From the NCBI RefSeq assembly GCF_006345805.1, contig NW_021828853.1, positions 1-7,493 of the forward strand: a DNA stretch of 7,493 bases. Reading direction: 5' to 3'. Position numbers and translations under genes: made by a program. Below, one piece after another: positions 1-7,373 of this stretch (positions within the stretch are counted from its first letter, which is position 1; each line of letters begins with the position of its first letter). Origin of the DNA: Octopus sinensis. Its lineage: Eukaryota. Under the pieces are notes generated by a model. That model ran no database searches. It saw only the letters and a list, made by a program, of their open reading frames with translations, and was not told the DNA's origin.

Positions 1-980
1 TGCACTGAGAATGAACGAATGTTATTGTTTAGATTCATTTAAATAAATTATTCTCTAGATATTATATAATTTCTGGGGAAAGATACTTTTAGCCAGAAAA
101 TTATGGATACAAAGAAAAGAAGAGCGTCTTGCGAATTTTAACCTTGATAATTCATTTTTCTTAGGGCTTCAATCTATGATCCAACATAAAACTAAGGTAG
201 ATAATTATGGAACTTACTGGAAAGGTGTTGCTAAATTGTAATTATTTGTATGCTGGAAAGAAAATTTAAGCCTTCTATGACAATATTTTATAATTAATTT
301 CTTTAAATTATTAAAGGATCTAGAATGATTTACTAACAAAATATTTACTAAAATATTTATTGGTATTAAGCTGATGTTTGGAACATAATTAACCAAAAGT
401 TGCATAAAAATGATGAGTTTTAATTTGTATATAAACACTTTAAAACAAGCAGTTTTTTTTATTAATGAACTTTGAACATTCTTCTGTAGGTTGGTTCTCA
501 AAAGGATCGTATTTTTGATATGAATTCAACAATAGGTAAGGAGGAAGTCAAATTTTTTTTTAAAGTTATGATAGTTTATAGATAGACTAATTCGTAAAAC
601 ATCTAATTTAACAGCAAGTGGTGACCTTAGTCACTCGAGTCACACTCTAATAGTTTCTTCTAGCAAGAATGTAACCGTGAATATATTAAATTTCTGAGTG
701 AACAGCCAAGATATAAACTGGTACAGAAGTAACTTATATTTCCATATAGAGATAGTAAGTTTTAAAGACTCTTTATAATGGATATAAAAACAAAAGTCAG
801 TGGGTTAAGAAGACAAGTAAATAAAAGATTTTCAGTGAAGTTGATAAAAACAAAAATAGATTTTTCTTAATGTTTCATACCAAACAAAACCGTTTTGATC
901 AATCATTATTTCAACACAATATTTACTGACAAATTGCTGTTATTGGACAAGGGAATAGAAGGAAGGAAAAAAAGAAGACA

Positions 981-1013
981 CAGATAGATAAATGGATGGA
1001 TGGATGGTGGATG
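981..1013. repeat. Short (GATA)/(GGAT) microsatellite
   Basis: cagatagataaatggatggatggatggtggatg. Confidence 0.7.
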
Positions 1014-1079
1014 AGTAAAAGATAGTGACATTAAAAGATTAGTTTCCAGTCCTCCTTACATGAAATATCAAATTCTTGC

Positions 1080-1300
1080 TTTTTTTTTTTTTGCTTTTTT
1101 TTTCAAGTAAATTCAATTAATTTGACTCTAGTCTAATACTGGTACTTTATTTTATCAACCTTCAAGAAAGGGTGAAAGGCAAAGTTGGCCCTGGTGGGAA
1201 TTCAGATTTCAAACTTTGAACAATATTAGTGATGGAGCAAACAAATTTACAGTAAAGCATCTAGTCCCAGTGCTCTCCTCTCTAAAAGCTGTCTATACCA
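1080..1300 (-). mobile_element. Old, diverged copy of the tRNA-derived SINE found at 5976-6407, with possible A-rich tail (1080-1103)
   Basis: actggtactttattttatcaacc..gggtgaaaggcaaagttggccctggtgggaattc aligns by eye to actggtacttaatttatcgacc..gatgaaagccaaagtcgacctcggtggaatttg (6048-6110), with CpGs decayed. Boundaries approximate. Confidence 0.75.
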
Positions 1301-1589
1301 CTTTCTTTAAACATGAAATATTGACATGCTGTAAAAATATACAATGAAGAAATCTTTTAAGATTTTTCATTAACAAAAAAAAAAAAAAATTGAAATTTTT
1401 TCTCCTGTAAAAGTGAAAAAAAAAAAGAAATTATTGCATAAAAAAACAATTATAGTCTTAGAAATGAAAATCCAAGAGTAAAAGAGGCAATTATGGTTTA
1501 TGGGAAGCATCAAGAATAGTTGGGAAAATAACTAACTAACAAACAAAATAGAATAAATTGCACCACCTCATACTGAAACCTTTCTCCTA

Positions 1590-2733
1590 TCAGCCTTGTT
1601 CAAGAGGCAAATTTTTATCTACAGAAATTACATTTGAAACTAATCCATCTTGTTTAGAGAATGGATAAGGAGTGTATGTTGTAAACCTGGTAGGAACACC
1701 TTTTCTTCCAACCAGAGATTCATTGACGATGTTCTCTTGCTTCGGTTTTTTGAGACTTTCATCGAGGTAATCGTAACTGCATTCCTTAGCACCTTTACAT
1801 TTTCTGAGTTTTTCTAAATTGGCATGGAGCTGTTGCAGCACACCATAATTTATTTCATGAATGCTGTTCTTCAACTGATATGGGTCTTCCAGCATGTTAT
1901 AATAACTGATAAAGCCAGTGATGAATTCACAGTAGAGGAAGTTGTGAGTCTCATTAACTGTACGAATACACCAGTACGTGTTGTTATTGGCATTGGAACA
2001 GAAACAAAATGGGCCATAAGTCCAAAAGGGAGGCGTTTTCCAGTGGTCGTTATCCATGATACTACATTCCATACCATCTTTTTTACAAGATATCCCATGA
2101 AGCTGAGAGAGATATTCAGTTGAACGTATCCGATGCCGTGGCTTAAACTTTGATGGAAAGTTCCAGTAAGGTGGGGTTTTCCAGTGATCGTTGTCATGTG
2201 TAAAACATTTCATGTTCGGAACACGGCATTCATGTTTACTGTCTTTCCGGTTACGCTTAAACTTACGCTTAAATTTACGCTTCAATATCTTCTTGCGATA
2301 CCGTGGACGCTTCCATGGTAGAATTGGTTGATTTGTACTAAACAAAGTGTTAAATTTTGGTGTAGTTAACTTCCTGTTAGCCGTGTTGATACCTGTTTGT
2401 GTCCTGCTACAGTCACAGGCCGCTCCATTCCCAACTCTGTCGTAGCTTCCAGTGCTAGGATAGAACATGCGGTCGACAGGAACTGGGGGTGCTACTGTTT
2501 CAGAAGGTTTCTGTTTTTTCAAATGTTTACGAATATCCTTTAAATTTTTAATTGTCAATTGATATTTTTGAATTAAAGAATCAAGATGGTCTTTGTGGTT
2601 TTTCCAGATATCTATTTCCTCATATAACACAGGATCACAAACAATGGTGTTGTTTGCCAGAACTCTGCACATTTGCTGCTGCTTTTGATAGGGAAAATCA
2701 ATTTGTAAAGAGTCCTCTGTAGAAAAATCAGGT
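1590..2733 (-). CDS. Sulf1: Extracellular sulfatase Sulf-1/Sulf-2 homolog, C-terminal portion (second half of hydrophilic domain plus C-terminal domain); 5'-partial, catalytic domain not in window
   Basis: Translation has Sulf-family signatures: CRVLANNTIVCDPVLY..WKNHKDHLD..IKNLKDIRKHLKKQKP (hydrophilic-domain coiled coil), CDC, a basic K/R cluster, CFTHDNDHWKTPPYW, GPFCFCSNANNNTYWCIRTVNETHNFLYCEFITGF..Y..DPYQL..LQQLHANL..LRKCKG..C. Ends in tandem stops TGA (1592-1590) and TAG (1589-1587). The track start at 2771 is spurious because it lies in the LINE. The true 5' edge is either a candidate splice acceptor (tttttctacAG, exon starting at 2716, phase 1) or the LINE junction at ~2733. Could be a retrocopy rather than a functional exon. 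Confidence 0.93.
2251..2286. repeat. 3 x 12-bp coding tandem repeat (LKRK-FKRK-FKRN) in the Sulf basic cluster
   Basis: ttacgcttaaac ttacgcttaaat ttacgcttcaat. Confidence 0.85.
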
Positions 2734-3335
2734 ACAAGCCACTTCAGTGCTTGAAAATGACCACATCTCACTCCTCTGGAACTTCACCATTCAAACTGAC
2801 AGAAAGATAGATGCAAATAGGCCAGACATCATAGTAAAAGACTCCAGACAAAACATGCCTCCTCATTGATATGACTGTCCCAATCGATATAAACGTATCT
2901 GTGAAGACCTACAAAAACTGAGCAAATATAAAGATCTTGAATAGAAATCAGCAAAATGTGGAACCTGAAGACTAAAACAATACCTGTTGTCATAGGTGCC
3001 CTGGGAATGATAGCAAAAGGGGCTGATTGCTACCTAACTCTCAGATACCAGGAACCCCAAAATGGCAGAATTCAAAAGATAGTGCTCATGGGAACTGCCC
3101 ATATCCTACACAAAATACTTTCTATGTAATCTCAAGTTTTAAAACAAACACATATTTTCTTATGGTTCTTAAACATTCTCTAGAACAACACTATGTACAA
3201 AACCAAATATATGGCACCCTAGGCCATAACACCAACATGAACTTCCAACTTGTCTCTTGAGGTCTCTGGGTGAGACTTGGAGCCAACTTGTACAAATGTA
3301 AAGCAAAAGTCAAATATAAAATAATAAAATAATAA
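2734..3335 (+). mobile_element. 5'-truncated, frameshifted non-LTR retrotransposon, R4/Dong-like clade (REL endonuclease C-terminus, 3' UTR, TAA-rich tail)
   Basis: Joining frames gives VLENDHISLLWNFTIQTDRKIDANRPDIIVKD../CLLIDMTVPIDINVSVKTY../LSKYKDLE/IEISKMWNLKTKTIPVVIGALGMI../QIPGTPKMAE/QKIVLMGTAHILHKILSM* (stop 3127-3129). This is the RPD..D PD-(D/E)xK-type nuclease and PVVIGALG motif typical of R4-clade elements. Ends in aaatataaaataataaaataataa (3312-3335). Confidence 0.88.
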
Positions 3336-4170: not shown

Positions 4171-4261
4171 ATATATAGATATATAAACACACACATACAT
4201 ACATACACATGTTCATATATACATACATTCTTACATAGAAATGCATAACACCAAACATCTG

Positions 4262-4510
4262 ATGTCATCATCGTCGTCGTCGTCTCATTTACTCTGCTTC
4301 GTGATCTTCCTGTTTTCTTGGTCGCACAACCTCCTCCTCCTCCTCCTCTCACGTCACTCCCTCCTCTTCTGCCCCCCCCATTTTCTCTCTCCCAGTCCTG
4401 TTTCATTCTCCTCCCTATTCTCACCACCTCTTACTACCCCTTGCACCTGGAACTACGATCACGATTCATATCATATCACTCTCTCATGTCACACCCCCAC
4501 CATCTCCCTC
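4262..4510. repeat. Pyrimidine-rich low-complexity tract ((TCA),(TCG),(CCT) repeats)
   Basis: tcatcatcgtcgtcgtcgtc, cctcctcctcctcctc, C/T-rich throughout. Confidence 0.65.
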
Positions 4511-4546
4511 TGTGTACCCACATGCGCACGTGCACAGACACATTTC

Positions 4547-5900: not shown

Positions 5901-5975
5901 AAGACGCCTGGAGCAGGTAGAGAGGGGAAGAGATAAATAGAAAGAGGGAGGAGGAAGATACATTTTCCAATATTC

Positions 5976-6407
5976 TTTTCTACTCTAGGCACAAGTCCCG
6001 AAATTTTGGGGGAGGTGTCCAGGCGATTAGATCGACCCTAGTACACAACTGGTACTTAATTTATCGACCCCGAAAAGATGAAAGCCAAAGTCGACCTCGG
6101 TGGAATTTGAACTCAGAACGTAAAGACTGACGAAATACTGCTAAGTATTTCGCCCGGGCATGCTAACGTTTCTTATTTCTTTACTGCCCAGAAGGGGCTA
6201 AACATAGAGTGGACAAACAAGGACAGACAAAGGGATTAAGTTGATTACATTGACCTCAGTGCATAACTGGTACTTAATGTATCGACCCCGAAAGGATGAA
6301 AGGCAAAGTCGACTTCGGTGGAATTTGAACTCAGAACGTAGCGGCAGACGAAATACCGCTAAGCATTTCGCCCGGCGTGCTAACGTTTCTGCCAGCTCGC
6401 CGCCTTC
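5976..6407 (-). mobile_element. Dimeric tRNA-derived SINE flanked by a 17-bp target-site duplication
   Basis: Two homologous monomers (6407-~6174 and ~6173-5976) share ~150 bp but have different 3' tails. Minus-strand head ggcggcgagcTGGCagaaacgttag (A-box-like) and gaGTTCAAATtcc (B-box-like). TSD tacattttccaatattc at 5959-5975 and 6408-6424. Confidence 0.9.
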
Positions 6408-6438
6408 TACATTTTCCAATATTCACACCAAGATTTCT

Positions 6439-7065: not shown

Positions 7066-7373
7066 ACTACCCGTCACCCATTCACCCAGGCATTCCCCGT
7101 ATTTACTTAGAAGCATCAACCTGAAAACACTCTCTTAATCTCGATATCCGGTTCAAACCCACACATTTCCACTCAGTTCACAAAATAAACACAACCAACA
7201 CAACCAACCTTTTTGTGTTTCGTTTGTCATGAAGCAACGCCACCACTTCCTCACTCCGCCTCCTTTGTCACGCAACCGATCCTTCTTCCTTTATTGCGTA
7301 CTTTGAAATATTTTCATTATTTTCCTACCTGTTTCACTTTAGGTGCGACTTATACACTTATCATTTTCTTCTA

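What the first reader, a model, noticed from the sequence alone, without database searches (positions are those of the whole stretch)
2019..2321. Sulf with an in-frame tandem duplication of the basic-cluster + 'C-x6-C-xxx-DNDHWKTPPxW' module
Seen: unit 1 LPWKRPRYRKK..ECRVPNMKCFTHDNDHWKTPPYWN (2321-2160) is immediately followed by unit 2 FPSKFKPRHRIRS..SCKKDGMECSIMDNDHWKTPPFWT (2159-2019). The conserved cores are 47 codons (141 nt) apart with identical Cys spacing. The DNA is diverged while DNDHWKTPP is retained, and there is no GT/AG at the unit 2 edges, so it is not a read-through intron. Known: vertebrate SULF1/2 carry this motif once, preceded by a basic cluster implicated in heparan-sulfate binding. 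Inference: the units look like an old duplicated exon pair, possibly mutually exclusive exons, one strongly basic and one much less so. That would give a splice-switchable HS-binding module, or else a lineage-specific Sulf with two modules.
Basis: partly seen in the sequence, partly recalled or inferred. Interest (0 to 1): 0.75.

Follow-up and report, generated by a model that had tools for sequence, protein, structure and literature searches.

The report
Ancient duplicated cassette exon in Sulf
The window is an intron-free copy of an octopus Sulf (heparan-sulfate-trimming enzyme) mRNA, and its repeated motif is a separate 141-base exon of the parent gene that gene models of molluscs and an annelid include or skip, which would likely retune how the enzyme grips its sugar substrate.

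Summary
The repeat is real: two 22-residue C-x6-C…HWxTxPxW cores lie 47 codons apart (13/22 identical). The window is not the gene itself. It is a 5'-truncated, spliced copy (seven introns cleanly removed, no substitutions) on a 7.5-kb contig, abutting a decayed repeat; retrocopy or assembly chimera is unresolved. In the parent gene (G000:C9), unit 1 ends a 215-nt phase 2-1 exon and unit 2 is its own 141-nt phase 1-1 exon 21 kb downstream. The exons are not mutually exclusive: unit-2-only splicing frameshifts. Unit 2 is a cassette: RNA contigs break at its edges in 3 of 7 runs, and with/without isoform models exist in octopus, scallop, mussel, abalone, limpet and the annelid Owenia. Unit 2 always carries Met where unit 1 and almost all other Sulfs carry His; oysters and a nemertean keep only unit 2. 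No named non-lophotrochozoan Sulf had two cores. Likely mechanism (inferred): inclusion swaps the module that opens the C-terminal half of the catalytic core and moves the polybasic heparan-sulfate-binding helix 47 residues away. Present in automatic annotations; no paper found describing it.

The parts
1..2733 (-). Processed (spliced) copy of the 3' part of the Sulf mRNA; 5'-truncated inside a 117-nt exon, cut off at the contig start inside the 3' UTR
   Evidence: Seven parent exon pieces match exactly and join at GT-AG introns of G000:C9:5416695-5492068; last exon 1-1756 is 99.6% identical with 0 mismatches and 4 gaps
1590..2733 (-). Open frame for the C-terminal 380 aa of Sulf (hydrophilic-domain end and C-terminal domain); no start, no catalytic domain
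   Evidence: PF12548 E 6.7e-16; 100% identical over 380 aa to P0124 residues 584-963, named Octopus vulgaris/O. sinensis Sulf-1 homolog X1
2159..2373 (-). Unit-1 exon, 215 nt, phase 2-1 (parent C9:5450937-5451151); constitutive in all data seen
   Evidence: no contig break at 2373/2374 in 7 of 7 covering runs
2244..2312 (-). Polybasic cluster at the end of the hydrophilic domain
   Evidence: sequence; helix 722-748 in both models; counterpart of Sulf-2 702-713
2163..2228 (-). Unit-1 core, His type (C-x6-C-x2-H-D-N-x-H-W-x-T-x-P-x-W), the ancestral module
   Evidence: His in 15 of 15 distinct first cores and 280 of 326 single cores
2018..2158 (-). Unit-2 cassette exon, 141 nt, phase 1-1, AG/GT bounded (parent C9:5472465-5472605)
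   Evidence: isoform models differ by exactly these 47 aa; contigs break at 2018/2159 in X7, X15, X16
2022..2087 (-). Unit-2 core, Met type (C-x6-C-x2-M-D-x2-H-W-x-T-x-P-x-W)
   Evidence: Met in 13 of 13 distinct second cores
1757..2017 (-). Two exons (143 and 118 nt) for the conserved C-terminal domain that follows whichever unit is last
   Evidence: model residues up to about 850 align within the S1 sulfatase fold
2699..2733 (-). Last 35 nt of a second alternative exon (117 nt, 39 aa), where the copy is truncated
   Evidence: RNA contigs branch at 2699 and run on into the parent exon at 2733
2734..3335 (+). Decayed 3' fragment of a dispersed repeat (LINE-like; class recalled from its frameshifted translation), head-to-head with the Sulf copy
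   Evidence: 88-91% identical to 5 of 5 copies fetched, all of which continue upstream of 2734 with shared sequence

Best explanation
The second motif is a 141-nt cassette exon that duplicates the 3' end of the preceding Sulf exon and is included or skipped, and including it would likely let unit 2 take the place of unit 1 at the start of the C-terminal half of the catalytic core, pushing the polybasic heparan-sulfate-binding helix 47 residues away from the active site. Shown: exon structure, phases, both isoform classes, distribution, His/Met signature. Inferred: one origin before molluscs and annelids split (partial duplication of exon plus donor, with a new phase-1 acceptor, which would explain the shortened basic stretch and the 32-50 aa length range); the skip isoform is a canonical Sulf; the inclusion isoform stays active but with altered HS binding, processivity or cell-surface retention. 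So the exons are not mutually exclusive in the mRNA, but the modules would be in the folded protein. The window itself is a 5'-truncated processed copy of the inclusion isoform and would encode no enzyme.
For: Parent exons and phases; both units end at the same codon position before a GTAAG donor. Isoform pairs differing by unit 2 in Octopus (963/916, 962/915), Mizuhopecten (894/852), three Mytilus species (861/819), three Haliotis, two Patella and Owenia (992/960). Contigs break exactly at both exon edges in 3 of 7 covering runs from three studies and run through in 4 of 7. Of 410 proteins held, 43 have two cores, 326 one, 15 none, 26 lack the anchor; named two-core proteins are molluscs or Owenia; 0 of the 150 best 50%-cluster representatives have two full cores. 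Unit 2 can stand alone: unit 1 is reduced to a remnant in 4 of 4 full-length Ostrea, 4 of 4 Saccostrea and 4 of 4 full-length Tubulanus models and in unnamed clusters P0016 and P0053. The motif is residues 720-741 of a primate Sulf-2, where an AlphaFold model of human Sulf-2 starts the second half of the catalytic core, with the basic segment 702-713 beside the active-site pocket (PMC11259796, passages). In the skip-isoform model the motif is ordered (block pLDDT 65-76, strand 758-762).
Against: The inclusion-isoform model is unconfident over both units (block pLDDT 32-44), and its alignment split single-module homologues across the two units, so it does not show which unit docks. The skip junction itself was not listed in any run: the RNA evidence is the break pattern plus database models. 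Single origin rests on 22 columns: one branch at 97/87 with the His/Met column, but 3 changes without it, one clade merely not rejected, p-AU 0.39. Several lophotrochozoans show only unit 1 in the models seen (Aplysia, Littorina, Lymnaea, Gigantopelta 2 of 2, Solemya, Capitella, Macrostomum): loss or missed annotation was not resolved. No activity, tissue or protein data. No solved Sulf structure exists among the hits.
Confidence: 0.6

Rival explanations
1. Same cassette exon, but unit 1 stays docked and unit 2 loops out as an extra disulfide-bonded surface module (second glycan site, partner site or domain-swapped dimer).
For: Both cores are kept intact side by side in 43 proteins; the fixed His-to-Met change suggests a different job; a 47-aa insertion is long enough to loop out.
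Against: Lineages that lost unit 1 keep unit 2 directly before the C-terminal domain, so unit 2 can fill the slot; the only strand predicted in the inclusion model is in unit 2 (805-808, low confidence).
Confidence: 0.22
2. The duplicate is functionally redundant: both isoforms behave alike and the cassette is tolerated, with either unit free to decay.
For: Unit 1 decayed in oysters and Tubulanus; unit 2 is absent from several gastropod and annelid models.
Against: Both cores and the include/skip choice persist in cephalopods, bivalves, gastropods and an annelid; Met is fixed in 13 of 13 second cores and His in 15 of 15 first cores; the splice choice differs between runs.
Confidence: 0.13
3. 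One reading: mutually exclusive exons, one strongly and one weakly basic.
For: Homologous tandem exons with the same donor position.
Against: Phases 2-1 and 1-1; unit-2-only splicing meets a stop after five codons; both units co-included in 7 of 7 covering runs; no break at the unit-1 exon start; no octopus unit-2-only model among 11 cluster members.
Confidence: 0.03
4. About the window only: the intronless copy is an assembly chimera of a cDNA-derived read with genomic DNA rather than a true germline retrocopy (about 40% against 60% for a very young retrocopy).
For: No substitutions against the parent; a 7.5-kb unplaced contig; no second contig holds the 3' end; no laid contig bridges 2733/2734 (0 of 8 runs).
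Against: 5' truncation in mid-exon next to an interrupted repeat fits retrotransposition; flank stretches 4255-4545 and 7075-7360 are unique to this contig; the runs laid look like transcriptomes, so they cannot test it.
Confidence: 0.4

Closest known systems
Extracellular heparan 6-O-endosulfatases SULF1/SULF2, Drosophila Sulf1 (S1 sulfatase family; PF00884, PF16347, PF12548)
   Same: Domain order, polybasic cluster at the end of the hydrophilic domain, His-type Cys/Trp core, conserved C-terminal domain (PMC3890690 passages)
   Different: A second, Met-type core on a cassette exon; none seen in named vertebrate, arthropod, nematode, priapulid, hemichordate, echinoderm, lancelet or coral proteins held
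Tandem exon duplication-derived substitutions / mutually exclusive exons (PMC8373072 and PMC9013439, abstracts seen)
   Same: Ancient tandem exon duplication coupled to alternative splicing
   Different: Partial duplication; the copy is added or skipped, not substituted; any substitution would be at the level of the folded protein
Oyster alternative oxidase with duplicated exon 10 (PMC5589949, abstract seen)
   Same: Molluscan duplicated exon under alternative splicing
   Different: A terminal exon used either/or and described in one species; here an internal cassette shared across classes and phyla
Quail Sulf1B splice variant (described in PMC3890690, passage)
   Same: Alternative splicing that changes Sulf function
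   Different: A shorter isoform with opposing activity, not a duplicated module; the catalytic domain is untouched here
Processed pseudogenes / retrocopies
   Same: Introns removed precisely, 5' truncation, 3' UTR included
   Different: No decay; poly(A) tail and target-site duplication not visible because the contig ends

Membership tests
Sulf endosulfatase | S1 catalytic domain with CxPxR motif | tested here: met
   Met for the parent gene: CCPSR at 103 in P0124, N-terminal exons on C9:5375368-5403166, fold match Z 32.8, rmsd 2.5, 406 aligned to 5g2v. The window copy itself lacks this part.
Sulf endosulfatase | Hydrophilic domain ending in a basic cluster | tested here: met
   PF12548; 20 K+R in 54 aa
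Sulf endosulfatase | Conserved C-terminal domain after the Cys/Trp core | tested here: met
   Invariant Cys and other columns in 54 of 54 rows of A1
Sulf endosulfatase | 6-O-desulfation of heparan sulfate | not testable with these tools
   needs an assay
Mutually exclusive duplicated exons | Homologous exons in tandem | tested here: met
Mutually exclusive duplicated exons | Same phases, so that either exon keeps the frame | tested here: not met
   2-1 against 1-1; stop after five codons
Mutually exclusive duplicated exons | Never included together | tested here: not met
   co-included in 7 of 7 covering runs and in the window
Cassette exon | AG/GT bounded, symmetric, length a multiple of three | tested here: met
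   141 nt, phase 1-1
Cassette exon | Both inclusion and skipping occur | tested here: met
   database isoform pairs; contig breaks at both edges in 3 of 7 runs; the skip junction itself was not listed
Processed pseudogene (retrocopy) | Precise loss of the parent's introns | tested here: met
   7 of 7 junctions
Processed pseudogene (retrocopy) | Poly(A) tail and target-site duplication | tested here: inconclusive
   contig ends about 500-540 nt before the ends of the RNA contigs; no other contig holds the 3' end
Processed pseudogene (retrocopy) | Present in genomic DNA reads | tested here: inconclusive
   no genome-sized run among the 24 listed; no bridge of 2733/2734 in 8 runs laid

The most novel reading that the evidence does not exclude
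Lophotrochozoans, which have one Sulf gene, gained a second Sulf activity more than 500 million years ago (date recalled) through a single cassette exon: inclusion swaps the docked core module and uncouples the polybasic heparan-sulfate-binding helix from the active site. This is a conserved, tissue-regulated splice switch that is additive in the mRNA but mutually exclusive in the folded protein, and a natural experiment on how the Sulf hydrophilic domain feeds substrate to the catalytic site.
Probability: 0.35. Interest if true: 0.68.

Novelty: new variant of a known kind. Interest (0 to 1): 0.47.

Why it matters
How the Sulf hydrophilic domain and its basic cluster drive heparan-sulfate recognition is open, and no Sulf structure turned up among solved structures. 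Two natural isoforms that differ only by a 47-residue module at the hinge between the basic helix and the catalytic core, plus species that kept only one or the other module, give a ready comparison. It would also be a conserved means of tuning Wnt/FGF/BMP-type signalling in animals with a single Sulf gene (one locus found here). For the scan, it is a caution: a small contig can be a spliced copy that hides the real exon structure.

Tried and rejected
Read-through intron or intronless gene: rejected, the parent has introns at both edges. Merge of paralogs: rejected, one locus. A third unit in the introns: none in 120 kb by tblastn and six-frame motif scan. Complex prediction of unit 2 with the catalytic and C-terminal domains gave no verdict (score 0.12, mark 0.34; alignments not used) and is not used either way. 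dN/dS between units was not computed: 22 codons with 6 of 10 degenerate identical residues changed is too short and near saturation. A region-limited homologue search was weak (14 hits of 24 candidates). The paper PMC2755875 was not held, so the deletion data on Sulf subdomains were not seen. PMC13405426 (passages) had nothing on this exon. Earlier findings of the scan: none returned. Literature searches that found no description of this exon, judged from listings only; one search found no octopus retrocopy paper among the 10 listed of 53. Supplements were not examined and subscription journals are not covered.

Full report
Observation. The minus-strand frame 2783-1590 encodes the C-terminal half of a Sulf (PF12548, E 6.7e-16). 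DNDHWKTPP occurs at 2195-2169 and 2054-2028, 47 codons apart. The 22-residue cores share 13 residues and 38 of 66 bases and score 93 against at most 54 in 2000 shuffles. The basic stretches do not align; unit 1 has 20 K+R in 54 residues, unit 2 has 8 in 47. Residues 18-397 are 100% identical to residues 584-963 of P0124, which the databases name as Octopus vulgaris / O. sinensis Sulf-1 homolog isoform X1.

The window is a spliced copy. The window is the whole of contig C5324; the same coding sequence lies in separate exons on G000:C9 between about 5.375 and 5.503 Mb. Seven exon pieces match the window exactly and join at GT-AG introns; the last exon and 3' UTR match 1-1756 with 0 mismatches and 4 gaps. 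The copy starts in the middle of a 117-nt exon at 2733, head-to-head with a decayed repeat fragment at 2734-3335 whose five fetched relatives all continue upstream. Two flank stretches tested are unique to this contig. No other contig holds the 3' end, and none of 8 runs laid bridges 2733/2734; the RNA-like contigs run on into the parent exon instead. These runs are 57-106 million letters and look like transcriptomes, so retrocopy against cDNA chimera stays open; I put it at about 60:40. Either way the copy lacks the catalytic domain.

Exon structure of the repeat. Unit 1 is the 3' end of a 215-nt exon of phase 2-1 (C9:5450937-5451151). Unit 2 is a 141-nt exon of phase 1-1 (C9:5472465-5472605), 21 kb downstream and 17 kb before the next exon. 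Both end at the same codon position before GTAAG. Skipping unit 2 keeps the frame and gives the canonical sequence; skipping unit 1 gives a stop after five codons. No third unit was found in 120 kb.

Splicing. Of 8 runs laid, 7 cover the gene and all 7 contain both units joined. In X1, X3, X8 and X2 one contig runs through the exon; in X7, X15 and X16 (three studies, both coded organisms) contigs break at 2018 and 2159 around a 200-nt piece, the pattern a skipped 141-nt exon leaves. The skip junction itself was not listed. None breaks at the start of the unit-1 exon. Database models give the same pair: 963/916 and 962/915 aa in Octopus, 894/852 in Mizuhopecten, 861/819 in three Mytilus species, pairs in three Haliotis and two Patella species, and 992/960 in the annelid Owenia. 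These are automatic gene models.

Distribution. Of 410 proteins held, 43 have two cores, 326 one, 15 none and 26 lack the C-terminal anchor used for counting; the set is what the searches returned (120 listed of 872, 150 of 534, 61, plus cluster members), not a census. Named two-core proteins are molluscs or Owenia. None of the 150 best 50%-cluster representatives has two full cores. The third residue after the second Cys is His in 15 of 15 distinct first cores and Met in 13 of 13 second cores; single cores are His 280, Met 30, Gln 15, Phe 1. The named Met-only proteins are oysters, unionid mussels and the nemertean Tubulanus; in oysters and Tubulanus a remnant of unit 1 is visible upstream. 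Pinctada has a decayed unit 1 and two Met-type copies. A tree of 52 cores splits Met from non-Met on one branch (97/87), but this includes the labelling column; without it the label needs 3 changes (16.5 shuffled, 0 of 500 as low) and one clade is not rejected, p-AU 0.39. One origin in a lophotrochozoan ancestor is the simplest reading, not a proven one. Models from Aplysia, Littorina, Lymnaea, Gigantopelta, Solemya, Capitella and Macrostomum show unit 1 only.

Mechanism. In a primate Sulf-2 of 870 aa the core is residues 720-741 and the basic cluster 702-713. A published AlphaFold model of human Sulf-2 puts the catalytic core at 35-420 and 720-830 and the segment 702-713 next to the active-site pocket (PMC11259796, passages). 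The hydrophilic domain is needed for HS endosulfatase activity and surface localisation but not for small substrates (PMC3890690, passages), and the C-terminal domain is needed for activity (bioRxiv 10.1101/2023.11.22.568358, passages). My skip-isoform model orders the motif (block pLDDT 65-76, strand 758-762) and aligns from residue 57 to about 850 with S1 sulfatases (5g2v: Z 32.8, rmsd 2.5, 406 aligned). The inclusion model is unconfident over both units (32-44) and its alignment was poorly suited, so it decides nothing. The inference is therefore evolutionary: the last unit before the C-terminal domain is always an intact core, and unit 2 does that job alone in oysters and Tubulanus. Inclusion would then dock unit 2, with a short basic patch, and leave unit 1 and the long basic helix on a 47-residue tether, changing HS capture or processivity. 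I give this 0.6; unit 2 looping out 0.22; redundancy 0.13.

Novelty. Tandem exon duplication with alternative splicing is well known (PMC9013439, PMC8373072, PMC5589949; abstracts), and so are Sulf splice variants (quail Sulf1B). This exon is present in automatic annotations, but seven searches (listings only) found no description of it. It is a new variant of a known kind: additive rather than mutually exclusive, old, and at a functionally pointed place. Interest 0.47; 0.68 if the module-swap switch is shown.

Noticed in passing
window 2699-2733; G000:C9 about 5416613-5416729: A second alternative exon (117 nt, 39 aa, basic) in the hydrophilic domain; skipped in octopus X2 models and contigs branch at 2699 in 6 of 7 covering runs.
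   Followed up: partly
proteins P0020, P0024, P0180-P0187 (oysters), P0035 (Tubulanus), P0022 (Sinanodonta), P0016, P0053: The ancestral His-type core has decayed or gone and the Met-type core stands alone.
   Followed up: partly
protein P0009 (Pinctada): Decayed unit 1 followed by two Met-type units, a further duplication in one gene model.
   Followed up: no
window 2734-3335: Decayed LINE-like 3' fragment joined head-to-head to the truncated Sulf copy; the repeat's usual upstream bases and the parent exon resemble each other for a few bases at the joint.
   Followed up: partly
window about 5970-6410: Two tandem copies of a dispersed SINE-like repeat, 88% alike over 149 nt.
   Followed up: no
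G000:C7:101845129-101858047: A second, more distant sulfatase gene (51-56% over two short pieces), possibly the lysosomal glucosamine-6-sulfatase (guess).
   Followed up: no
window 1773 and 2487: Single-base differences in some runs (G>A in X2, X3; G>T in X8, X15, X16) where window and parent locus agree, so the copy matches this assembly's own allele.
   Followed up: no
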